A DNA stretch of 64,000 bases from Hormiphora californensis. Lineage: Eukaryota > Animalia > Ctenophora. Both the position numbers and the translations under genes were made by a program. Below the pieces are notes generated by a model. That model was not told the origin of the DNA, ran no database searches, and saw nothing but the letters and a program-made list of their open reading frames with translations. The stretch spans positions 1,860,001 through 1,924,000 of the forward strand of contig CM035350.1 in the NCBI GenBank assembly GCA_020137815.1, read 5' to 3'. Positions 1,698 to 60,779 of this stretch are shown one piece after another; positions within the stretch are counted from its first letter, which is position 1; each line of letters starts with the position of its first letter.

Positions 1698-3804
1698 ATG
1701 ACAAGCAAGGCCACTTCAAAAAAGATAACTCTACGAGTACCGGAGAGCAGTACACCCACCATAGTCTGCACCACAAGCGCAGTGGATCGGAACAAGAATT
1801 TCCAGGATAAAACTAAGATAACTTGCTACCAGAACACTTCAGATCCTGACAACCCCAGATTAGCGGGACAGAGAATGCTGCTGATGGATTGTGATGGGAT
1901 TCAAAGCGTTGGGAAATCTTGGGAGTCAAAGGTATAGTTAATGAGATGTTATAAATGTCGGTTAGGGTTATCTAAACACACCATTTTAACTTCATACCAA
2001 CACCCTTCTACTGCTGGCTAAACACCCTCCTCTACTAAACACCCTCCTCTACTAACACCCTCCTCTACTAAACACCCTCCTCTACTAAACACCCTCCTCT
2101 ACTAAACACCCTCCTCTACTAAACACCCTCCTCTACTAAACACCCTCCTCTACTAAACACCCTCCTCTACTAAACACCCTCCCCCCTCTGCTAGGTGTTT
2201 GGTACGCAGTACATGGTGGGTGTTCTAGATAAAGCATCAGGAGAGATGGAGCTCCGACCTGCCAGCATGGTTAATATGAAACCCTACGTAGCGGGCTGGA
2301 AGGACGGCACTGAGAAGAATGAGATAGAACTTGGGTTCGCTGAGAAACATAAGAAGTTAATGATGACGTTCGGAGATAACCGTATTCAACGGACCATTCG
2401 AGGTATAATTAGTTGTGTGCGGGGGCATGTTATGTGGATAAGTTGTGTTGGGGGGTTATTGTTAGTGCAGTTGTACCGTCATCAAAAAGGGAGGGGGACT
2501 CTACTTATTATGCAGAATATGGTGTACAATGCGAGAGCATGTAAATGTGTATAACAACCTCAATTCCCCCAGATCATGTATTAAGCCCTCCCTCCCCTCT
2601 CCCTAGGTAAGGACAGGATCAAGGACATGGAGAGTAGCACGTTGGGTGAGGCTATGCAGGAGGCAGTAGAGTCAGTAGAAGAGTCCGCACTAACCAAAGA
2701 GACAGAACTATCTCACAGCACCCTTCTACCTCCCATCAACCTGGAGGCAACGGTTAGTTATATCGGGGGTCAGAAGTCCTCTCTTCTAATTCTCACTTGT
2801 TCCCCTTACCAGAGGGGACGTCCTGTCCATTTGGTGAAATTTTAATCAATAATTATAAAAACATTAGATTGGTTACCATGGTAACGCTCTCCACTTCTCC
2901 AGGAGCTAGCCGATGTGTTTTGTATCACAGACTTTATCACAGAGGGTGAGATGTCAGCTCTCCTTCCCTTTACAGAGGTCCTCCGGGAGTGCACCCAGAC
3001 TCATGTTGATGAGTGGAGGATACAGAAAAAGTAAGTCTTTCATACCGGGGCCCTTTGGTGGTCGAGCTACCCTTTGAGAATCGTAAAATCTGTGCTTTAG
3101 TATCTGACCCGAGGTACCTTCTTGGTTTATTGGTTACCCAACCCCCTCGGCCCTCCTTCAGGTACCCAGAGTTCGTGTTATCCCGTTTACCTGTTATTAT
3201 AGAGGATGAGGAGATGGCCAGGTTAAAACTTGCCCAGCTTCTCTACATCAGTTACATGGTTACCCTGGTAACCATGAAACAGGGACGACTCCGATTCAAA
3301 CGGGAAGGTTTCCCCAATACTCCCGCAGTGGTATGTGAAAGGGTGGTGAACATGGTGCCGGGTTGGGTGGTGTTATGTTTCCTGCCATGTACAGCTGAGT
3401 CTTGAAGACCAGTTTCACAGATCAGTATCTTGATTAGCATCAACCTACTTCATCTCCTTTATAACCCCCAGGTGATTGATACCCTCTACCGAAAGTACTC
3501 CTCTCAAGGCCAGGACGAGAACGGCAAGGTCCGTACCTCCATATCAGATCAACAGAGAGCCAAGCTAGTGAACCACATCGCCGCTCTATCCCTCATTATT
3601 GACAATTACAGAGTGCCCTATGAGGAGTTATGTAGGGACACAGCCATTAAACCAAGGCTGCTAGCTGATACATTCAGACAGATGGGGTGTAATTGTAAGA
3701 AGTTGAAGAAACAAGATGGGAGTGTGCGGGCAGTAGCCAGCCTCTCCCTGCCAGTCAAGTTACCTCCTCTTGTGATACGAAAGGGTGGGAAGAAACGGGA
3801 TTAG
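1698..3804 (+). CDS. POLR1E: RNA polymerase I subunit RPA49/PAF53, multi-exon (about 6 exons)
   Basis: Exon peptides YMVGVLDKASGEMELRPASMVNMKP, LMMTFGDNRIQR, LLPPINLEAT-ELADVFCITDFI, KLVNHIAALSLIIDNY, TFRQMGC and ASLSLPVKLP resemble PAF53/A49. GT-AG boundaries link the ORF pieces at 1698, 2195, 2607, 2903, 3162 and 3472. Confidence 0.85.
2017..2181 (+). repeat. 17-bp minisatellite (ACTAAACACCCTCCTCT, about 9 copies) in RPA49 intron 1
   Basis: Tandem units are directly visible and end just upstream of the 3' splice site near 2194. Confidence 0.9.
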
Positions 3805-4227
3805 TAGTGTATTAAAACAACACTTGATTGCTAACGCTTTCACAAACTATTCGACATGGACAGTGTATTGTTTTATCTGAGTCTACGTGTGTGTGTATTG
3901 TCTGTTTGTTAGGGATTATTTGGGTGGGTAATTTATTGCTTTTATCTAATAACATTTGATGTGTCTTCTCTCCCTGCCCTAATCTCTCCCTGCCTTTTGC
4001 CTGTTCATATTACACGAAAACCGAAAACCCAGACATATTAAATGCAGTAGCGACTCCCCCGCTTGATAAACTCCGCCCATGTAAGAACCTCATACAGTAG
4101 TACCCCCGATTACTAAACTCTATAATAGTAGTAACCTGAAATGAAAGATCAACACAAATCACAGTTAGCATTATTGTATTGGTCCCCTTTCCGAATCAAG
4201 TTACTAAAATACCATTGTTTGTAGAGT

Positions 4228-4758
4228 ATGATTGGTGACAAGGTCTCCACCCTCCCAACGACCCTCCCTAAGAAGACCACCCACCCTGTAGCCCGGGAGC
4301 ATGCCGATGCCTTGGTGGACGCCACCCTATCCAACCAGGACTCAGACAGTCTCCATGACAACTACACCCCGGGTATCCTCTCCATGATAGAGTCCATGGA
4401 CAGGCCCGTCCTGGTACATCTCCGGGATAAACGCACTGTTATTGGGGTTCTATCCTCCATTGATAGCTATGGAAACCTCCTCTTGTCTAACACCGTAGAA
4501 AGGGTCTATGCGATGGGGTTCCATGCTGATATACCGCGGGGTCTGTACCTGGTTAGGGGGGAGAATGTGGCCCTGGCAGGTGAGATGGGGGATATGTGTT
4601 ATGAAGATGCAAAGCCACTTGATCAGATCCTCCACTGGCAGGAGATGGAGAGGTTAGCGAGGGATGAGAGGAAGAGGAGGGTCAGACAGCTCAGTGCTGA
4701 GGCGATCTTTATTACTCCTGACGAGCATACTGCACTTGAGGATGATTTCTATCAATAG
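4228..4758 (+). CDS. LSM1: U6 snRNA-associated Sm-like protein LSm1 (mRNA decapping), intronless
   Basis: YTPGILSMIESMDRPVLVHLRDKRTVIGVLSSIDSYGNLLLSNTVERVY and DIPRGLYLVRGENVALAGE give the LSm1 Sm1/Sm2 signature. Confidence 0.93.
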   Translation: MIGDKVSTLPTTLPKKTTHPVAREHADALVDATLSNQDSDSLHDNYTPGILSMIESMDRPVLVHLRDKRTVIGVLSSIDSYGNLLLSNTVERVYAMGFHADIPRGLYLVRGENVALAGEMGDMCYEDAKPLDQILHWQEMERLARDERKRRVRQLSAEAIFITPDEHTALEDDFYQ

Positions 4759-17091: not shown

Positions 17092-17592
17092 TCAGTTAAT
17101 CAGCTGCCCTGAATCAGCAATCTTAACAGTTTTTGACACTTTCCCCGATGATGTTCCACATCCCTCCATCTCTTTGAGGAAATCTAACCCCTCGATGACC
17201 CTACCAAACACGACATGTTTATTGTCCAGCCACGATGTTGTAGCCGTGGTGACAAAGAATTGGGATCCGTTGGTGTTTGGACCAGAGTTAGCCATGCTTA
17301 ATTGACCCATTCCCGTGTGTTTCAAAGTAAAGTTTTCGTCCTCAAACTTTTCACCGTAGATTGATTTTCCTCCAGTGCCATCACCACTTGTGAAGTCACC
17401 TCCCTGACACATAAACGCAGGTATAATACGGTGGAAGTAGGATCCTTTGTACCCGAATCCTTTCTCACCGGTGCACAGAGCCCGAAAGTTTTCCGCCGTT
17501 TTCGGGACCACATCGGCATATAACTCCATCAAGAGCCGACCGAGAGGCTGGTCGTCTAGCTCAATATCAAAATACACGAATGAACTTGGCAT
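17092..17592 (-). CDS. PPIA: Cyclophilin A-type peptidyl-prolyl cis-trans isomerase, intronless
   Basis: [40 protein letters not shown] and [26 protein letters not shown]. Confidence 0.97.
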
Positions 17593-26773: not shown

Positions 26774-26914
26774 TATATGATTAGAGCAAAACTGTAACTG
26801 GGAAGATTTATACATTGTGTATGGGCGTTGTGAGTGTGTTGTTGAAGCGTTGTTATGGGAAGTTGCACGTGCAGTTTCTCCACTCTAATATGACCTAGTT
26901 TATCTGATTTCCCC

Positions 26915-29900
26915 ATGGCTACCCCTGAAACAAATAGTGCTCGGGGTAGCTCTGCCTTCCCCTCAGAGCTCAATGTCGGCTCCCTCTTCCGGGATACCCC
27001 CTCAGACTTGCTGGAGACGTTAGATGAAAACTTGGCGGTCGTCCTCAGTCCCGCAGAGAGAGAGGTAGAGGAAGATGTGGTGCCTATCTACCCTGAAACT
27101 ATCAGCCTGAAAGATGTCAATGACTTCCATGGGATGATGGAGTGTCCCATCTTTACAACCTATATCAACACATTCCTCAACCTCCCCTTGTTTTCCAGGT
27201 CAGTGTGCTAGAACACTGTAACTCTGTACATAAATAACCAGCTCTTTGTCTAGCAATTTGTTCCTTTCTACCTTATCCAACTTCTTGCTCGACCCTTTCT
27301 CTAAAGGGTTAGAAAATAAAAAATAACTCCCTGCAGGCGTATGGTTTACAAAGGGAACGTGAAGCAGTTCTCCATGGAGCCACCACTAAAAAGGAGGCGG
27401 TTCCGGGTTGATCAGGGGATGGTTGTAGCATGGGTCCTTGTTTACCGGCTACCATACTTTATGAAGAGTCATCTTTACCTGGAGTATAGATTCGCTTTGG
27501 AACTTCTCACTGGTAAGAGATATAACATGTTTCGTGTGGTTTGGAGGGGGGTGACCTGCTAATACTCAACACACTCGGCTTCTAAACCAAATTGCGAGGA
27601 ACATATCTTTAGAATTGGAAGTTAGAGGGGATATGCATGTCCATCCCCTTTCTCTACGAGTTGAGAATTGCTGTCCATCTGTCTAGACAAATATGGTCAA
27701 TACTATTTGTCAAATAGAGGGTGGAGACCTTGTCGGGCAGGTCTTTGATCCACCCTACTATAGCTCTCTCAATCTTTGCTTATACATCCCCCTCCCCAAG
27801 GCCAATTTGATCTTCTATATGTCTAAGCCTACTTACTATAGGCACTAGCCTATTTACTAGCCTATTTGCTAGCAAGGCATACCAAACCACACTAAATTTA
27901 TCTCGAGCTTCTCTCCCTCTCTATAGACAAGGGAGTTTAACTGTTATCTCCCCCATCCAATGAAGATATGATATAAGGTCCACTCTTTCAGATCTATATG
28001 TGGATGGAAAGTCACTGCACATGTACCAGGAATTGAAGAGTTCTGTTGGGATCAATAGATTCAGGATCTTCCTGCAGTCACGTGACATGGCCAAGTTGGT
28101 ATCGTTCTGGATGGATAGTGAGAGGTTTCACCTTCTAACATCTACCAAGGAGATGAAGGAGAAGTTTACTGCCATTGAAATACTCTACCTCAAGGTATAG
28201 GAAGGGGGTAGTATTATAACCATCACCTAGGAGGGGGGTATGATGGCCTCCGGCCTAGTATTATTACCATCAGGAATTCAACCTCTTCCCCGCACTAATT
28301 AACCAACCCCCCCCCTCTTGCCCTTGGCCAACTAACCCTCATTCTCCCTTCTATCAGCCGGGTTCTAAGTTTGAGTTACCGGAGACTCTCCGAACTACCA
28401 TATTAGAGAAGCTGGAGGAGGACCACAGCACACTGGGTGAAGTCATGGTGCACGGGACACCCCTAGTAGACAGGATCAAACAGAAGGAGGTGGAGAAGAT
28501 ACGGAGTTTTAAACTGGTCGGGGGTCTCCTAAAGACTGCTCAACAGGAGGTAGGTTGGACCGAACTTTCTCCATTCAAATACTCACATAACATGTCAACA
28601 TGATGGATGAGAGGAACAGTAACATTCCATCCGCTATATCCCTATAACAGCAACCACATATAATTGCAGGTTATGACCTTTCTGAGGCAGTACTGGATCC
28701 CTCGTTACTTCATACGAAATGGCCTGCCCTACAGTGATGGCAAGAAAGAAACGGACCCTTTTGTTATCAAGGTAGATCCTAAATGAAGAACTTACTTAGA
28801 AGTTAGAAGCGTATCTAAAGAATTAACCCTGATAAAATATTAAACCTATCAGGTTTAGAAGCTTGTTAAACCTTCCCTAAATAACTCCCTCCCCCTTTTA
28901 TCTCAGTCCCATCTCATCTGGGGTCGTGAACACAGGATAGGGCCCAGTGAAGATCCAGCCCCTAAAGTGTGCTCATTTGGCGGCCAGGCCCCCCAGGACA
29001 TGGAGGGGTTAGATCCGGGTCTCTTGGAGCACATTCCTGAGGAGGGTGCTACAGTGGGTGACAGGACCTCTATCTGGAATAACAACCCCCATCTGATCGC
29101 ACCCAACAATACTCATGGGGCTGTGAAGAGGAAGGAGAAGAAAAGACTCAAGGTAACATTTGGATAGGTAGCTTCTCTTGTCAAACGATAATTTAGAGTT
29201 ACACGATATGTTGGGGGAATTTGGGATTAAAAACTTTTACCATTTACAGCTTTGCTGATCAAGAGCACCGGTCCACTTCAAATAAAACTAATAGGTGTCT
29301 GTTTTCAGAAGTTTACCCTGTTTGAACAAGCTCGAAAGAGGAGTCAGGCAGTACCACGACATGATTCTGAATACATGAGACAACTGTCTAACATCCGACA
29401 GAGCTTCCTTGTCTCCTCACCCCTGTGAGTTTATTTAGTGGACCCGTAATATCTAGTGTGTTATGTTTTACCCTAACGCGGTGTGAGAGGCTCGAGCAAG
29501 GCAACTATCTAGTGTGTTTCAAACTGATAGTATTTGTGTAGTTTCCGGGGGAAATAGAGAATAAAGTCTTTTAGGAAAACAATCAAAAGATGATCAAACA
29601 CAACATAAAAACACACCAAAGCCACACTAAATATCTAAAGAACCTGTTTTGCTATTTTGACAGCACACGAAATCACTATCACCATGGTAACAAGTGTTGT
29701 TACCATGACAACAAACTCCAACTGACTGTCTATACCATTACACCACTCAGCAGGGTTAACAAGTCCAGTCCAGGGTGGTAACTCCACCCCATCCCAATCC
29801 CTCAAACCCTCTACCTCTGGTCCTGGGTCATCACCAGTATTGGGTAGGTGTTTAGGGCACTGCTCAGACTGGCACCTCCACTCCCCATGATGTGATGATC

Positions 29901-32900
29901 GGTACGGTTTTAGGCAGATATCGGTCATGGTGCCCGGGATACAATCACTCTTCAACCAGACCTCACTATCAGCAACATCTTCATTCTCAGCTGCTTCTTC
30001 TCTCCTTTTGAGGTTTTATAAAGAGGTAGAACACCTCAGTAGTGGAGTTGTAACCCCCATCAAACTCCCCCTTTATACTCCCCCTGGCACCTCCTCCCCC
30101 TTCTGACACGGAGAATCGTATAGTCAGTAGGAGTCGGTTAGTAGTGTAGTCCCTCTCCAATAGCACTAGAAATGAGCCCAGGGTTGACTCCCCATGTATC
30201 ACTGCTATCTGATCCAAGTCCTCTCCAAATGAGATGGAAAGGTCCAGTCTGGGGAAGGTACTCCTCTCAACCCACACCTCTCCACCACCGTCCCAATCAG
30301 TTGTTATCACAGTGTTGCTAGGATCCTTACCATGGTAACCAACTCCTGCCAACTCAAACTCAATATCTTGTTCTCCACAGTTATTGACAGTTGCCCGTAT
30401 TAGAGAGTGTAGAAGGGCGGGGTTGTAGAGCCCTCCCTCACGGTACCATCCCATCTTTCTGGGGTCCCACTCGTGTAGAGCGTTAACTGGTACACCTCCC
30501 ACCACGGTAGTACCATCATCCTTAACTAGATACCACTGGTAAGGAGATATCGTCTGGGTATCAGTAGTTGAGAGGAGGGATACCTGGAAGCGACCGTCAA
30601 TCAGTACTGCGTTACTGAGATCTACCTCTAGGAGGGAGGAATGTACCACCTCTTTAGATGAGTTGTTCACAAACCTCTGTCTCAGCCGGCCCACCTTCCT
30701 TGGTACACCCAGCTCTATTGCAGTGAGGTTACCACCCCCTGATGATGTCATAGTGACGTCACAACAGAGTTGACTGGTTCCCATGGTAACGGAACATCCC
30801 TCCGTTCCATGCCCTGTTGAGAAGTACCTCACCATCTCCTGATTATCTTGTGGGACTGCTGAGTTGCAGTAGTCCCTTCCCCCGGGACAATCACACCAGC
30901 AGGTAGCCGTCACATGGGGTGTGGTGAAGGAGTACCTCCCAGTCACTGGGTATACCTCCCACACCCTCTCCAACTCAATTGTGTAGTGGAAGTGGACGAG
31001 AGTGGTGAGGTCTATACCAAGTCGTCTCTCCCCCAGCAGGACGGATAGCTTGTAGCAGAGGGGTTCTGTTAGACCGAGGGATGTGTGGTGTTCCGTGGCT
31101 GTACGACGAGGAGAGATAGGCGAGGAACAGATATCGTGTTGGTCACGTGATCCAGCTTGTTGGTCACGTGATCCAGTTTGTTGCTGGTGATGTGACCCAG
31201 CAGCTGCAGTGGAGTGAAGGAGGAGCAAGAAAGTTAGCATAGTGTAGAGATCAGTAGTGGATTAACAACACAAAGCATACACTGACAGCTGGCTATTGTT
31301 TACAGTCCAACACATGGGCAGAGATTTCAAAATATCTCATTCATATGTCTCTCTCCCTCCCCCCTCTCTCTCTCCCTCAGCTGCGTTTCAATATCTGTTT
31401 TTCCGCGATACTGAATACAATAGTCACTATTGTTTCTATATAACTCACTAACACTTTCCTACTCCCCCAGTTCTACTACTGCAGCAGCGCCACAGGAAGG
31501 TGGATCAGTAACACCCCGCAGGTTCACCCCTGGTAACCTACATCTGGAACCCCTTGGAACTAAATTCCCCTCAATCAGTGAGAAGAGCTCATCCGATGCT
31601 TCAATGAGTACCCTCCTCTCTGGGGAGTCCCTTCCCACCCTGATTATTGGCCCTGACCCATACCGGCTGCTGGGTAAAGTCAACAAAACCCTCCTGACTC
31701 CCATGAAACCTGAACAACTGAATACCAGGAAGTGGTTGCTAGGTGCAGTGGCGGCTAACTGTCTAGCTGGTAGACCCATTCAGGACTATCTGAACTACCA
31801 CTGCTCCACTAGTACAGGCGAGACTGCTGACAGTGTGGGTGTAGTGTTGAGAGCACTGGATTGTTGGGAGAGGATTGAGAGGATTAGAGCTACTGCCAGT
31901 GCATCCTATGGTGGGAGAAGGGCTGAGGAGATCACTAACGCTGGAGGGTGGGCAGGTCTGGACGCGCCCCGTCTCCTCCCCACCTACCACCACTACCTGG
32001 CATCCCTATCCGGGGATATCCTGGAGGTACACCTGGAGCCCTACAAAGAGACCAGGTTTATAGCCCGGGAGTATCTAGCAACTGAGGGTGCACTACAGAT
32101 GTGTGATGAGGTGCGGGGTGTGCTACAGGAGATGTTGAAGGGTGGTAATGTGGCTGATACCTGGCTGGCACTCCTCCAAGAACACTGTCTGGCACTCTGC
32201 CAAACTTGGGTTGTGAGGTACTTTGTGTGGCAGGATGATCGGTTAAAAGTGAATTGTGCACCTAGCAAGGAACAACGCCAATACCCCCTCTCTAGAGTCC
32301 ACTCCCGGTCCGCATCTTGTATCCATGGTAACGATGCATTTGATGACGTCATAGTAACGGACCTGACTACCCAATACTCCTTTGCACCCCGCTCTGAACA
32401 GGTGTGGTTGTCACTCTTTGCGTTGGAGGTTGCTAGTTACCGACCTGCGGAGGTGTACTATCCTCCAGTACCCACTACCACACATAGTATTGGAGTGAGC
32501 TGTAGGGAGGATGATCTTCATAATAGGGGGATTGTGGGGGAGAAACTGGATAAGAATCTGAGACCTAGGAGTGGGCTGATGACAGAGTCCCAGGCTAACC
32601 TTCCCCGTGTAAGTACCATCCTTAGTTCAATATCACTTCAAGGATCAATCACTGAACAGCAAAGAAAGTTCAGCAGAATTACAGTATTGTTTAATTAATT
32701 GTGTAATAGATTATTCTCCTCTCAGCTCCAAGATTGTCGAGCACAGCATGATGCTAAGAACAAACGGAAGAAGTTTGTCAAGAGATCTCTTATCAAGAGG
32801 ATTGAGAGCGCTAAAAGCAACATGTCCCAGGTAAAAACTTTTGTTTGTTTCTCGAAACCCTCTCATTAATGTGCCACATCTACCCAGTAGTCGAGCTTTA

Positions 32901-35729
32901 TCACCCCACTTTGTTGAGTAAGGGGTGGGAGAGGCTCCTCCTCCACCCTTTACTCAACAATGCAGATTCTAACACCCCGTCCCCTTTAGGTGAGCACGTC
33001 GGGCAGTGAGAGTAGTGTGATGACAGGTACAGTTTCCAAAAGGAAGAAGCTCCGTCCTTCCACCTTCAAGCAGCTGCTAGGGGAGTCCCACTACTTCAAC
33101 ATGTTCATGAAGTACCTCTCACTGAACATGGCGGATGAGACAGAGGCACCACTACTAACATTCTGGCATCAGGTATAATTAGTAGAACCCGGGAATTAAA
33201 TTGTTAGTTATTACTAAGCTGGACACATTTACGATTCGGTTCTTATGCATATGTGAATGTTTAGAAGAAAATCCAAATAATATCAGACGGCTGATTTTAA
33301 TGATCTTTTCTTCAGGTTGAGATAATGAAGTCCTATCAAACGCCCAAAGCTCGAAAAGAAAAGGCGACCTCTCTTCACAAGAAGTACCTGTTCCCAGGAC
33401 ACGGTCCAAAGAGGGAGTATCTGATGAATGTAGAGTGCCCTCAACTCATTGAGATAGCTGAGAAGAAGAATATCACGTGAGTTGAAGACGTCGCCCTTGA
33501 AAAACATTTTCCATGCCAATAATCAGTGTTTTACCATTTCAGAGAATCAAAATAGGGAATCTCGAACCATATATGAATATCCCCCGTACCTATTATAATG
33601 TCACCCTCTCTCTCTCTCTACCTCCACCCTCTCTCACCAGGCCAGCGATGATAGTGAACGCCCAGACCTATGTGTGTAAGATACTAGAGGAGAAATGGTG
33701 GACTCCCTACAAGACCTTTCTGGAGGATGACGCTAGTGCGAGGATAATAGAATCCTCATCCCTGGACGTTACTAATACTATTAGTTGTGGTCAGGATTAC
33801 CGGGCCAATCTGAGGTACCAGTGGGGTATATTCACCTTCGATCTGATCAACTTTCAACACGGACTACAGGACGCTGTTAGGTTAATATCAGGTTGCTATG
33901 GCTACCAACTGGCAGTGAGTGTTAAGAAATGCAGGGTTACCATGGTTACCACTCTAATTTTTCAGGTACACCCAGTTTAAACAGTATCTGAGGAAGACCT
34001 TTGTAAAGTTGTGTACCGGGAAGGGCAAGAAGAGTAAAGATGGACAGTTCTTTGTTGTCGTTAATGGAGTTGGAATCTTTGCTGATAGGTGAGTTAGTTA
34101 CAGCTGGAGATAGCCGATGATAGATGTTTTAAATTGATTTGGGGCCCTTTCAAAAAAGTAAACAGAACTCTCATCTCCCCACCCCTCTCTCTTCCTCTCA
34201 TCTCCCCAATCCCTCAGGTTAGATAACGATCTGGATTTCTTTATAGAGATCAGCAAGTGGATAAACCTCAAATCTGACATGGCTAATAACTCGGGTAGGA
34301 AGCTACACCGTGCAACAGAGGCCCTGCTGGTGTGTAAAGCCCAGGCCATCGTGTCCTGTTTCTTGAGATCAGCCGTGCCTCCTCGAGTTAGGGTGAACTT
34401 GCCAGGGAACATCATAGCAGAGATAGAGAAAAGGGTGGACGATAGTAAGAAGTAAGTTGTATTTAGAGTTGTTTAGAGACCTAAACTTACCTTCGTGGAC
34501 ACCATACGAAGGGACACAGGAGAGAATAGACGAGATAGCTTCAATGATGGCTGACCGAGACTTATGGCGAGAACTTACCTACCGTGTTCGAGAATACCAC
34601 TCGCCATAAGTCAAGTAGAGACACACATTTAATGAACATTGAGCAAATATATATCTCGTTATATTGAGACTGGAGTCCAGTATTTTCAACCCCTCCCTCC
34701 CACTGTATTCAACCCCTCCCCCTCTCTCTTTGCAGGTTCCACAGGGGTCTATTTTACAACGCAGCTCTCCACATGGTGACCATGCTCCTACCCTTCTGGA
34801 AGAAGTTCTGTTTCTTCCTGAGTGTGGGGGTCAGTGAGAAGGACAGGGCACTCATCCAAACTGTGAGTGGACAGGCCATCAGTAGTAGTAGCTTGGGGTG
34901 CATTGATGAGCGAATTGGGGATGAAAGACAGGAGAAATTAGGAGCAATCGCTGAGAAGAAGGTACGAATTTGAATCTTACCTTTCTTGCTTTTCATATAA
35001 GAAGTTACCATAATTACCATACTTATTGTAGCAGAGTTACCGCCTAGTTACTATGAAAGTAACAGCCTAGTTACCGCCTAGTTACCGCCTAATTACCATG
35101 GCTTCCCACCAGATCAATACAACTGAGAGCACCAGTGACGGTATCAAGGGTATACGGGGGAGGGTAGCAGCTCAGGATAAGATCCTCTCCAGACGAGATG
35201 CATTTCCCCTTACTCTCTCCGCCACCCTCCACACCGACCAGAACCTGCACTATCAGTTTAGTTTGTCATCCGGAATCTGCCATCTCAAGTTTGATAATGG
35301 AAACGAGATACCACAACCCTGCGAAGTCCTTCTTACACCCTTCACCGAAGAGGTAACATATTTAACAGCTTGCAAAGTTGCTATCTAGGAATTTCCAGTT
35401 TTACTTTGCCTTTTTATTCTGGGCTCACGCCCCCTCCCCTCAAATACTGCCCTTCCGTAGTTCAATCTGTGTAATCATGACAAGGTATATACAGCTAATC
35501 CCTCCTCCCCCTTCTACAGATTGAGTTCCTACTCTCCCCCCTGCCGGTAAGGCGAGATAGGTCCACCGTCGAAGTACCCCCATCCCACCACAACTCAGCT
35601 AAAAAATCACGATCTAAAGCCCTCAACAAGACCCATGATATACCGAACAGAGGGCGATGTGAGCCAAACAAGGCCCTTGTAGCACGACTAGCCCATGTAC
35701 AATCAAGAAATACCAGCCGACTCCGTTAA
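26915..35729 (+). CDS. RGS22: Regulator of G-protein signalling 22-like (RGS22/RGSL family, multiple RGS-like domains), many exons; intron 29425-31470 hosts a nested gene
   Basis: FTTYINTFLNLPLFS, WVLVYRLPYFMKSHLYLEYRFA, FRIFLQSRDMAKLVSFWMDSERF, AANCLAGRPIQDYL, FNMFMKYL..LTFWHQVE, LDNDLDFFIEISKW..IVSCFLRSAVPPRVRVNLP and LLPFWKKFC follow RGS22 in order. The phase-2 donor at 29425 matches the phase-2 acceptor at 31470. Confidence 0.82.
29635..31240 (-). CDS. EFF-1/AFF-1 (FF family, class II fusexin) cell-cell fusogen homologue; intronless, nested antisense in an RGS22 intron; one apparent frameshift near 30000-30015
   Basis: Signal peptide MLTFLLLLHSTAAAG. Motifs YPVTGRYSFTTPHVTATCWCDCPG, GC..SQLCCDV, LTAIELGVP, PVNALHEWDPRKMGWYR, RATVNNCGEQ, IHGESTL, DYTTNRLL, ICLKP and LVNPAEWCNGIDS plus a TM helix are collinear with C. 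elegans EFF-1 motifs (HPITQRYTFGIPEVHASCICECD, KLCCDV, RLGWYR, KAKVKNCKEQ, FLNPAHWIKGISS). ORFs 29987-31240 and 29635-29955 join by removing one base. Confidence 0.9.
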
Positions 35730-38140: not shown

Positions 38141-39706
38141 ATGGCATCCACGGTGGTTATCCCCGACATTTCGACGGAATGGGCATCTCTAGAGAAGTTG
38201 GCATTGGTATCTGCTGTCATTAGGATTGGTGACGATAACTGGCCCGCGGTCAGCCGACTTGTTCGACCTTACATCACCTCAAACCAAAACGTCGAGCTGT
38301 TTAGTGCTAAGAACTGTGCTCTAAAGTACGACGTACTCCTTCAGCAGGTAGGTACTTTATCGACTCTACATTCCCTCTATTGAATATATCTTTTTCAGCT
38401 TGACAAGCGGAAGCGAAAGAAAGAGCCGTCTGGAGAACCGAAATCGAAGGCTGAACAGATTCTCAAGCTCGTTACAGGGGAACGGATAGCAGAGCTAAAG
38501 AGCAAAGTTTTGGAACTTCACGCCAACTACCACGCAGCTGCACGTTGAGCTTAATGAGGTGAACAGTGGGAAAGTATAACAATAATATAGAAATCGCCTG
38601 GGATGAAGTCCAAATAAGAAAACACTCACAAACATTCAGGCCCCTGGGAACTTTGGTGGCGGGACACTATCAACGAGCGCAAACAAAAGGAAGCCCCACC
38701 TATCAAAGAGGAAGTGCTGAATGAGGGATCAAATAAATCGGACATTAAACCACAGTTGAAAATAGATCCCAAGCCGACCCTGACAGCTCCCTCGGCTACA
38801 GTTCAGAACACTGGCCCTCCCTCAATGAGTCCTGTTAGCAGTTCCCCTGGTAGGGGTGGTCCCAGGACTTGTCGCCTCTCCTCGACAAGGCCCAGCACGT
38901 CCTTTACCAGGCGAAGATAAAGCTCCAAGAGCAGGATAAAAACAAAGTGAAGGCCATTAAACCGCAGAAAAAGAAAGCAGTGGTTCCCAAGATTAAAATC
39001 AAAGCACTTCAATCTGGAGATAATACTAAAGTTGGGAAAGGCGACAAGAAGGAGGGGAAAGATAACAGGACTGTTTTTCATTTTGACTACCAACCTCCAT
39101 CTGGGTCAGGAGCAAATGCCAACGCTCAAGTACAGTTCTCTCTACTCAGACAAGGGATATCCGACCGCTGCTGCTGCTGCTGCGGCTGCTGCAGCTGCCT
39201 ATAGCAGCAGGGGTTACACTTGAAGCGCGGAGTGAGCCTTCTTCCTCTCCCGCAGGGTCCTCTAGTCATATCCAGCCACACTATGTCACCCAGAGTTGAC
39301 CCTGAAATGTTGGACCTTGATTCACCCGCATTTAGGGCATGGAAGAAGAGCATTCTCCTGCTGTGGAAGACAGCCTCCCAACACAAATATGCCCACATCT
39401 TTATGCAACCTGTTACTGATGCCCTCGCTCCGGGGTACTCAGCAACTGTGCGTACGACCAATCGACTTGTCAACAATCAAACGGAAAATCGACAGTCACG
39501 AGATTCGAACCACGGCCCAGTTTCATAGGGACATGTTACTGATGTTTCACAATGCTCTGATGTATAACAATGCCTCCCACGCAGTGTTCAGTTACACTGT
39601 CAATATGATGTCTGATGTAGTTGAGGTGATACAAGCGTTTTATAGCACCCATAACCAGCCCTTGAAGGTGCAAAGGAGCAGGGCTTCTAGTATTGCTAGT
39701 CAGTGA
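38141..39706 (+). CDS. BRD8: Bromodomain-containing protein 8-like (NuA4/TIP60 subunit); several apparent frameshifts
   Basis: N-terminal WASLEKLALVSAVIRIGDDNWPAVSRLVRP..FSAKNCALKYDVLL. Bromodomain WKKSILLLWKTASQHKYAHIFMQPVTDALAPGY/RPIDLSTIKRKI..IRTTAQFHRDMLLMFHNALMYN is split across two frames near 39450. Confidence 0.88.
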
Positions 39707-39889: not shown

Positions 39890-51651
<11,762 letters not shown>

Positions 51652-59704: not shown

Positions 59705-60779
59705 CTACGAACATCCACATTCGTTCACTATCATGTCGTCTAGGTTGTGAATCTCAATGTCGGTGGGCTGGCCCTAACAGAAGGAGAAGCGTATTATAGT
59801 AGAGTAGGGGGAGGAGTGATAATTGTAGAAGGGTAAAGTCGGATTTTTTGAAGTTATCACCCCCCTGGGTGGCGCGCAATGTTTTATTTGCGCGTCGGAA
59901 ACTTGTTTTGGCTCTCACGCCTTTGTTTCTTGACCGATTTCGTCGATCAAAAGTTTTACGGACTCACAAAATTATGCTCTTTCCAGTGATATGCGGTTTT
60001 ATGCCGTAAAGTGGGGGCTGTCACGCGCAAATACGACGCCGCGCGACAAAAGGGGGGTGACAGTTTCAAAAAATCCGACTTTATCCATTGGATACTATCC
60101 AAGGTACCCTCCCTACCCTCATATAGTTCAACTGATAGTTCAACCTGCACGTACCATTGAGTCAGTTTTCCCGGAGCTATACATGATGGAGAGGGAGGAG
60201 AGTAATGCAGGGGTACAACAGGGGCGAGGTGATGCCATGGGGTTGTTGTGATTTGCACGTGCTATCACAAACGTGTAGTATAGACTGCTCTTCTGTTCAG
60301 ATAGGTACATGAAGGGGCACTCCCCACTGCAGTAGTAGGCGTTGTATCCTTCTGGTGCTAGGATCCAATCCATACCTATATCAGCAAACCGCACATAGTA
60401 GGGATACCTGCAGGGGGAGGGAGAAAGGGTTACTAGGGGGAGGGCAAGAAGGGAGATACACCTGATGAGGTTTATATGGCTCTTGTGGTGGTACGAAGGG
60501 GACTACATGATTTGTATGGACCTCCATTACATGGGTGTGAAAAACAGTGTAAACCATTATTACCTGCAACATTTTTTCTGCTGTTTCGGGCTGACACAAT
60601 CGTACCCACTCCGCTTCTTCCTAGAGTGGTTCTCCTCGTATGTGTCAATTGATAGTAGTGGTCTGTTATCCTCGTTATTACCCATGAACACCTCATCAAA
60701 TGAGATGGAGGGGTCTCCCTGGAAACACCTTCCTATACACACCAGGATACCGTGGTTAGTGTCCGGCCACTGGTTCCAC
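59705..60779 (-). CDS. TGF-beta superfamily ligand with nine cysteines (TGF-beta/activin type); last three exons, 5' part not recoverable
   Basis: Prodomain end WNQWPDTNHGILV..RPLLSI and furin site RKKR. Mature domain SGYDCVSPKQQKKCCR|YPYYVRFADIGMDWILAPEGYNAYYCSGECP..PRPCCTPALLSSLSIMY..|..IHNLDDMIVNECGCS*. Confidence 0.95.

What the first reader, a model, noticed from the sequence alone, without database searches (positions are those of the whole stretch)
29635..31240. Intronless EFF-1/AFF-1-type cell-cell fusogen hidden antisense in an RGS22 intron
Seen: a signal peptide, a Cys-patterned ectodomain (TCWCDCPG..C, GC..LCCDV, MGWYR, VNNCGEQ), the membrane-proximal LVNPAEWCNGIDS motif and a TM helix, all inside the 2.0-kb intron 29425-31470 on the opposite strand. 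Known: these motifs are collinear with nematode EFF-1/AFF-1, which are class II fusexins related in fold to HAP2/GCS1 and viral class II fusion proteins. FF genes are very patchily distributed outside nematodes (a few crustaceans, amphioxus, a ctenophore, Naegleria). Inference: the lack of introns among intron-rich neighbours, with no gag/pol/LTR nearby, suggests arrival by retroposition or horizontal/viral transfer and later domestication. If the host is a ctenophore, this is a candidate fusogen for its syncytial tissues (the fused subepithelial nerve net, multinucleate muscle) or for gamete or wound fusion.
Basis: partly seen in the sequence, partly recalled or inferred. Interest (0 to 1): 0.92.

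Follow-up and report, generated by a model that had tools for sequence, protein, structure and literature searches.

The report
Comb jelly EFF-1-type cell fusion gene
A comb jelly gene lying on the opposite strand inside another gene's intron encodes a relative of the nematode cell-fusion protein EFF-1 and likely fuses cells, most plausibly muscle precursors; comb jelly relatives of EFF-1 were already reported, but this one belongs to a family of several comb jelly copies whose fusion activity is untested here.

Summary
Confirmed. An intronless minus-strand EFF-1/AFF-1 (FF) gene (31240-29635) fills intron 29425-31470 of a conserved RGS-domain gene. Pfam EFF-AFF E 4e-31; the model of the intact Pleurobrachia bachei counterpart matches EFF-1 best (Z 21.6). 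The frame break near 30004-30006 is probably an assembly error: 6 of 6 DNA runs lack one base there. Alleles show purifying selection (35 of 50 changes synonymous, pN/pS 0.13). The host is a pleurobrachiid ctenophore. The headline is not new: reviews already list a ctenophore FF homologue, RefSeq names Bolinopsis 'aff-1-like' proteins, and nested genes are common in this family. Recent retroposition or viral transfer is not supported. Ctenophores carry several old, mostly single-exon FF paralogues, and no viral, LTR or target-site signature was found. Not found in the papers searched: the paralogue expansion, forms lacking domain III, and this gene's loss of a cysteine pair kept by almost all relatives. 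Best reading: a bilateral EFF-1-like somatic fusogen, most likely for muscle-progenitor fusion (0.55). Expression and fusion are not shown.

The parts
29635..31240 (-). EFF-1/AFF-1-family (FF) coding sequence, no intron, about 534 aa; one-base frame break in this assembly
   Evidence: intact 562-aa P. bachei counterpart aligns over both frames
31199..31240 (-). Probable signal peptide (about aa 1-14); inferred from hydropathy, no signal-peptide predictor was available
   Evidence: mean hydropathy 2.2 over aa 2-9; helix at N-terminus in model
31137..31202 (-). Short 21-nt coding repeats after the signal peptide (S/R/D/Q-rich, low confidence in the model); copy number differs from P. bachei
30068..31075 (-). 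Pfam EFF-AFF match (aa 56-391): domains I, II and start of III of a class II fusexin ectodomain
   Evidence: fold (on the P. bachei protein)
30833..30847 (-). Site of a lost cysteine pair (aa 132 and 136) near the domain II tip
   Evidence: Cys in 44 of 45 and 47 of 48 other rows; only the two pleurobrachiid rows of 50 have no Cys in this stretch
30767..30793 (-). Putative cd loop (tip of domain II, aa 150-158): neutral, no aromatic and no acidic residue; aligns with the acidic EDD tip of EFF-1
   Evidence: loop assignment inferred from alignment and strand order
30004..30006 (.). One surplus base in this assembly; probable assembly (merged-haplotype) error
   Evidence: 6 of 6 DNA runs lack one base here at full depth
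29725..29763 (-). Membrane-proximal LVNPAEWCNGIDS motif shared with FF relatives
29659..29715 (-). Predicted transmembrane helix
   Evidence: 19-aa mean hydropathy 2.64; helix 534-561 in model
29638..29658 (-). Very short cytoplasmic tail (7 aa)
   Evidence: equally short in clade relatives
29430..29435 (-). AATAAA 200 nt past the stop, the only one on this strand of the intron; possible polyadenylation signal (weak)
29425..31470 (+). Host intron (2046 nt, GT-AG)
26894..35370 (+). Multi-exon host gene with RGS domain(s), conserved in P. bachei, Mnemiopsis leidyi and Bolinopsis microptera (limits approximate, from tblastn)

Best explanation
This is a conserved, intronless EFF-1/AFF-1-family gene of a pleurobrachiid comb jelly, nested antisense in an RGS-gene intron, whose product is predicted to be a class II membrane protein that likely fuses neighbouring cells, most plausibly muscle progenitors. 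Shown: family, reading frame in other individuals, purifying selection, nesting. Predicted: class II fold and type I topology. Inferred from EFF-1 (passages of PMC4050280): monomers on both membranes would pair in trans and trimerise, and domain III would fold back to zip the membranes into a pore. Action would be bilateral, because the domain II tip has no aromatic fusion loop. Inferred tissue: tentacle-root, parietal and mesogleal muscle, where progenitor fusion is described in Pleurobrachia pileus; the syncytial nerve net, gametes and wound fusion rank lower. It is one of several old ctenophore paralogues, not a recent arrival.
For: Pfam EFF-AFF E 4.3e-31. Model of the P. bachei counterpart from a 51-row alignment, mean pLDDT 78.7; its best matches are the three EFF-1 chains (Foldseek E 1.8e-24, next non-EFF-1 5.6e-13; Z 21.6, rmsd 4.8 over 387 residues, next 16.4). 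It keeps 12 of 14 conserved ectodomain cysteine columns, the membrane-proximal motif and the helix. 6 of 6 DNA runs, from 2 studies, lack the frame-breaking base, and the P. bachei protein is continuous. 35 of 50 variant places shown are synonymous, pN/pS 0.13, p 6e-12, in both halves; other coding indels listed look frame-preserving in sum. It groups with Bolinopsis aff-1-like at 100/100. Progenitor fusion into multinucleate muscle is described in P. pileus (passages of PMC3502136).
Against: No expression data: no RNA holder was listed. No fusion assay, and nothing ties this paralogue to a tissue. It has lost a cysteine pair kept by nearly all relatives, sits on the longest branch of its clade (1.25), is 85% identical to the P. 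bachei protein while the host exon is 97%, and has a 7-aa tail, whereas the EFF-1A tail is needed for normal fusion rates in vivo (abstract of PMC4723337). The model was built from an FF alignment for the P. bachei protein, not the window's, so a match to EFF-1 is expected. The 50 variants are the best-supported rows the tool showed; 134 and 95 further rows were hidden. Other paralogues may be the working fusogens.
Confidence: 0.55

Rival explanations
1. A diverged FF paralogue that is kept but no longer fuses by itself: an adhesion molecule, a partner subunit or a regulator of another paralogue, or a protein that acts in membrane scission or shaping.
For: Lost cysteine pair at the domain II tip, long branch, almost no tail. 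The same clade holds forms lacking about 140 residues of domain III, so non-canonical members exist. AFF-1 has a scission role (search listing and start of abstract of PMC5931541).
Against: All three domains, the membrane-proximal motif and the helix are kept and under purifying selection. The short tail is shared by the whole clade.
Confidence: 0.25
2. A working fusogen whose main job is neural (syncytial subepithelial nerve net), gametic or wound fusion rather than muscle, possibly acting from one membrane only.
For: Burkhardt et al. leave open whether net neurons fuse or stay joined after division, and name no candidate gene in the passages seen (PMC7617566). EFF-1 and AFF-1 fuse neurites in C. 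elegans (passages of PMC12407032). The tip loop is not acidic, and other ctenophore-side clades have more hydrophobic loops (mean hydropathy 0.65-1.0 against -0.67 for 17 nematode-clade rows).
Against: The syncytial net was shown in Mnemiopsis only and may arise without fusion. No FF protein named as Mnemiopsis came up among the 22 clusters looked up, though many were unnamed. This protein's loop has no aromatic residue.
Confidence: 0.12
3. A pseudogene or null allele: the frame break is real and the window haplotype makes a truncated, unanchored ectodomain.
For: The window has a one-base break near 30004-30006. Only contigs, which drop rare variants, could be laid.
Against: 6 of 6 DNA runs lack the base at full depth, including four runs of a sample with pieces identical to the window. 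Both halves show synonymous excess.
Confidence: 0.04
4. A recent retrocopy or a viral or horizontal insertion into the RGS intron, later domesticated.
For: No intron; nested; the family is patchy among animals. Viral capture as the origin of EFF-1-type fusogens is a published scenario (figure legend in PMC9259645). FF fragments on 6 metagenome contigs are split over several frames, so other FF genes probably have introns.
Against: Nearest relatives are ctenophore paralogues. The single-exon state appears family-wide. GC 0.51 and GC3 0.50 resemble the host exon (0.53, 0.53) and cyclophilin (0.47, 0.50). No LTR, terminal repeat or target-site duplication. 0 relatives in viral contigs; best viral folds are at 9-13% identity. 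A duplicate moving into this intron from another ctenophore FF gene is not excluded.
Confidence: 0.04

Closest known systems
C. elegans EFF-1 / AFF-1 (FF family, Pfam PF14884; PDB 4OJC, 4OJD, 4OJE)
   Same: Profile hit, collinear cysteines, predicted three-domain class II fold, membrane-proximal motif, single C-terminal helix.
   Different: About 20% identity; one cysteine pair missing; neutral instead of acidic EDD tip; 7-aa tail; no introns; activity untested.
Bolinopsis microptera 'cell fusion protein aff-1-like' XP_063679431.1 (and paralogues XP_063692208.1, XP_063682153.1); P. bachei EukProt P003250, P002964
   Same: Same clade (100/100) as XP_063679431.1's cluster; P003250 is the direct counterpart, 85% identical.
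   Different: About 30% identity to the Bolinopsis protein, which keeps the cysteine pair. These are automatic annotations; no function or expression was found in the papers searched.
Viral class II fusion proteins (phlebovirus Gc, alphavirus E1, flavivirus E) and the hookworm Atlas element envelope (PDB 7A4A)
   Same: Same predicted fold (Z 11-16).
   Different: 6-13% identity, clearly below EFF-1; no aromatic fusion loop; no viral genes nearby.
HAP2/GCS1 gamete fusogens (PDB 5MF1, 6DBS)
   Same: Class II fold (Z about 12).
   Different: No HAP2-GCS1 Pfam hit; much lower structural score than EFF-1.

Membership tests
FF / EFF-AFF (PF14884) | Profile score above the curated cut-off | tested here: met
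   108.5 bits against 25
FF / EFF-AFF (PF14884) | Class II three-domain ectodomain closest to EFF-1 | tested here: met
   Predicted model of the P. bachei counterpart; EFF-1 ranks 1-3
FF / EFF-AFF (PF14884) | Type I topology: signal peptide, ectodomain, one C-terminal helix | tested here: met
   Hydropathy and model; signal peptide by hydropathy only
FF / EFF-AFF (PF14884) | Complete conserved ectodomain cysteine pattern | tested here: inconclusive
   12 of 14 columns kept; one pair lost that 44 of 45 and 47 of 48 other rows keep. A departure, not enough to exclude it from the family.
FF / EFF-AFF (PF14884) | Falls among FF proteins in a tree | tested here: met
   100/100 clade with Bolinopsis aff-1-like; all rows were FF proteins, no outgroup
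FF / EFF-AFF (PF14884) | Post-fusion homotrimer | not tested
FF / EFF-AFF (PF14884) | Sufficient for bilateral cell-cell fusion | not testable with these tools
   Needs a cell content-mixing assay
Viral class II envelope / endogenous viral element | Viral or retroelement context (gag, pol, LTR) or closer likeness to viral proteins | tested here: not met
   Flanks of 230 and 210 nt without terminal repeats; 0 viral-contig relatives; EFF-1 scores above all viral chains
Viral class II envelope / endogenous viral element | Aromatic, hydrophobic fusion loop at the domain II tip | tested here: not met
   Loop has no F, W or Y; mean hydropathy 0.33; loop assignment inferred
HAP2/GCS1 | HAP2-GCS1 profile hit | tested here: not met
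   Only EFF-AFF returned at E up to 1
RGS22 (host gene name) | Orthology to RGS22 | not tested
   RGS domains seen; homologues carry PF00615 but no RGS22 name

The most novel reading that the evidence does not exclude
Ctenophores run their syncytial tissues (fused muscle, and perhaps the syncytial nerve net and wound fusion) on an expanded, mostly single-exon FF family that includes domain-III-less partner or regulator forms beside full-length genes, and this gene is one of its working somatic fusogens. EFF-1-type fusion would then be a toolkit of the earliest-branching animals rather than a nematode speciality.
Probability: 0.3. Interest if true: 0.85.

Novelty: new member of a known kind. 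Interest (0 to 1): 0.5.

Why it matters
The fusogens of ctenophore multinucleate muscle and of the syncytial nerve net are not named in the passages read, and whether net neurons fuse at all is stated as open. An intact, selected, single-exon FF gene is easy to clone, map and knock down, so it makes that question testable. The paralogue set tells experimenters that one gene will not be enough. If active, it would extend FF-type somatic fusion to the sister group of other animals. The presence of an FF homologue in a ctenophore is itself already known, which caps the score.

Tried and rejected
No whole genome was held, so paralogues in this genome and the empty-site test could not be run. A single-sequence fold was uninformative (pLDDT 35). 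A word-based search with alignment A1 returned only P0003. No RNA holder was listed, and the one possible RNA run laid 0 records; neither is evidence on expression. Viral contigs: 0 relatives among 52 and 30 pattern matches. Metagenome contigs: 0 of 181, then 6 of 86 distant fragments. The 50-row mixture-model tree did not finish (quick tree only); a 40-row LG+G4 tree was used. It left out the window's truncated ORF1, 2 non-FF hits, rows under 280 aa and 10 further short, long-branched or redundant rows, and added P0076. A split between named ctenophore and named bilaterian rows has only 63/88 support, so I draw no conclusion on vertical versus horizontal origin. An intron explaining the break was considered and rejected: the P. 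bachei protein runs straight through and runs differ by one base. The original 2011 paper describing non-nematode FF proteins was not held, so I could not check whether its ctenophore sequence (recalled as Pleurobrachia pileus) is this gene; its supplement may settle that. Ten literature searches found no paper on ctenophore FF paralogues, expression or activity; most subscription journals are not covered.
Full report
1. Observation. The minus strand of 31240-29635 holds two frames that overlap near 30000: a 417-aa frame from an ATG at 31240 and a 125-aa frame ending at the stop at 29635. The first frame matches Pfam EFF-AFF at 108.5 bits, E 4.3e-31, and the only PDB sequence matches are four EFF-1A entries (best E 1.6e-7). 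The second frame carries the membrane-proximal motif, a hydrophobic helix (mean 2.64 over 19 aa) and a 7-aa tail. Together they span 534 codons plus one base.

2. The break. Contigs of six DNA runs from two studies were laid on the gene. All six lack one base at 30004 or 30006, at full depth. Four runs come from one sample that has pieces identical to the window and may be its source, so they are not independent; the other two come from a second study. The two placements suggest two alleles merged into one consensus (inference). The P. bachei counterpart (EukProt P003250, 562 aa) runs through without a break and aligns to both frames at 84-85%. Of the 50 distinct coding variant places that the tool displayed (134 and 95 further rows were hidden), 35 are synonymous and 38 fall on third positions; pN/pS is 0.13, p 6e-12 against neutrality. 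The gene is therefore kept by selection.

3. Setting. The intron runs from GT 29425 to AG 31470. A P. bachei model joins the flanking exons, and a 1549-aa Mnemiopsis protein maps to exons from 26894 to 35370 on both sides. Host exon identity of 97% to P. bachei places the window in the Pleurobrachia/Hormiphora family (inference). In Hormiphora, 2357 nested intronic genes were counted beside 14,265 annotated genes (passages of PMC8527503), so nesting is ordinary. The flanks (230 and 210 nt) show no terminal repeat or target-site duplication (longest shared word 8 nt). GC and GC3 resemble neighbours, and a cyclophilin in the window is also intronless.

4. Relatives. A search of 1.84 billion representatives gave 58 hits at E up to 0.001; 56 of 58 carry EFF-AFF. 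Of 22 clusters looked up, named members were P. bachei (2 paralogues), Bolinopsis microptera (3, two of them annotated 'cell fusion protein aff-1-like'), Trichuris, Owenia, Branchiostoma and Holothuria, plus one stray 51-aa fish fragment; 13 clusters had no informative name. In a 40-row tree the gene falls in a 100/100 clade with the Bolinopsis aff-1-like cluster, and the three Bolinopsis paralogues lie in three separate 100/100 clades. The two P. bachei paralogues are rejected as one clade (AU p 0.013). Deep branches are unresolved (63/88 for ctenophore against bilaterian rows). The unnamed ENA proteins appear to be called without splicing: one follows a RefSeq model for 431 residues and then runs off, and a separate call covers residues 514-633. 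Full-length ENA proteins, including an 820-aa one matching a RefSeq model end to end, are therefore inferred to be single frames. The intron-free state is then shared across ctenophore clades, with one paralogue interrupted. No relative was found in viral contigs.

5. Structure. A model of the P. bachei protein from 51 rows reached mean pLDDT 78.7. EFF-1 ranks first by Foldseek (E 1.8e-24; next protein 5.6e-13) and by VIA-align (Z 21.6, rmsd 4.8, 387 residues; the Atlas element envelope 16.4; HAP2 about 12). Viral library matches are at 9-13% identity. The Atlas feature search with the Bolinopsis-cluster protein also put EFF-AFF first (0.93). Two departures stand out. First, a cysteine pair at residues 132 and 136 is missing, though present in 44 of 45 and 47 of 48 other rows; only the two pleurobrachiid rows of 50 have none in that stretch. 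Second, the loop that aligns with the acidic EDD tip of EFF-1 is neutral and has no aromatic residue.

6. Mechanism. Shown: family, open frame in other individuals, selection, nesting. Predicted: class II fold, type I topology. Inferred from EFF-1 (passages of PMC4050280; PMC9259645): surface monomers on two cells meet in trans and trimerise, and domain III folds back to draw the helices together and open a pore, with protein needed on both sides. The best-documented fusion event in this genus is the merging of tentacle-root progenitors into multinucleate muscle, seen by electron microscopy in P. pileus (passages of PMC3502136), so I commit to muscle fusion at 0.55. The nerve-net syncytium was shown in Mnemiopsis only, and its authors leave fusion versus incomplete division open (passages of PMC7617566). 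The main rival (0.25) is a non-fusing partner, regulator or adhesion form, given the lost cysteines, the long branch, the short tail (the EFF-1A tail matters in vivo; abstract of PMC4723337) and the domain-III-less paralogues in the same clade.

7. What is known. Two papers state that FF proteins occur in a ctenophore (passages of PMC4723337; PMC6504885). The original report was not held; that it concerned P. pileus is my recollection. Viral capture as the origin of EFF-1-type fusogens is a published scenario (PMC9259645). I saw passages, not whole texts, of PMC10730927, PMC9816575, PMC12407032, PMC7617566, PMC5350521, PMC8987731 and bioRxiv 10.64898/2026.08.30.748148; none of those passages links a ctenophore FF gene to a tissue. 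No supplements were read. Ten searches found nothing on paralogue number, domain-III-less forms or activity. The scan's own notes held no look-alike, and two notes on other class II proteins did not bear on the reading.

8. Verdict. A real, intact, selected member of a known family, in a phylum where the family was already recorded. The added value is the paralogue picture and a clonable single-exon candidate. Novelty: new member of a known kind; interest 0.5.

Noticed in passing
proteins P0011, P0013, P0014 (relatives, not in the window): Three FF proteins of 425-442 aa keep the N-terminal hydrophobic stretch, domains I-II, the membrane-proximal motif and the helix but lack about 140 residues of domain III. 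They form a 100/100 clade beside the Bolinopsis aff-1-like cluster. Members of the P0013 and P0004 clusters lie on contigs of the same lengths (11,412 and 345,002), suggesting neighbouring genes; possible regulators or partners.
   Followed up: partly
proteins P0015, P0016, P0022, P0026, P0046 and kin: Other ctenophore-side FF clades have hydrophobic, often aromatic loops at the presumed domain II tip, more like viral fusion loops than the EFF-1 tip; candidates for one-sided fusion. P0022 and P0026 are unnamed, so their taxon is unknown.
   Followed up: partly
proteins P0005 and P0085: Bolinopsis aff-1-like and the Bolinopsis counterpart of the host RGS gene both lie on a record of 26,206,493 bases, probably the same chromosome; nesting there could not be checked.
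   Followed up: partly
proteins P0019, P0020, P0021: FF proteins named from a sea cucumber (Holothuria leucospilota), an annelid (Owenia fusiformis) and amphioxus: the family is wider than usually listed.
   Followed up: partly
L001-L006: Metagenome contigs with FF fragments spread over several frames, probably intron-containing FF genes of unidentified eukaryotes.
   Followed up: partly
window 17092-17592 (-): Intronless cyclophilin gene, 166 aa.
   Followed up: partly
window 60143-60502 (-): Exon with a TGF-beta-family ligand domain (Pfam E 2.6e-20).
   Followed up: no
window 43271-43726 (+) and 45539-45994 (-), with arrays at 43858-45407: Near-identical inverted blocks around a long tandem array; a large inverted repeat or an assembly artefact.
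   Followed up: no
window 31137-31202: The coding 21-nt repeat contains a short palindromic core that also occurs on unrelated contigs (loose ends).
   Followed up: no
window 3406-4758 and 39266-39706: Housekeeping neighbours: RNA polymerase I A49-like exon, an LSM-domain gene in one frame, and a bromodomain exon.
   Followed up: no
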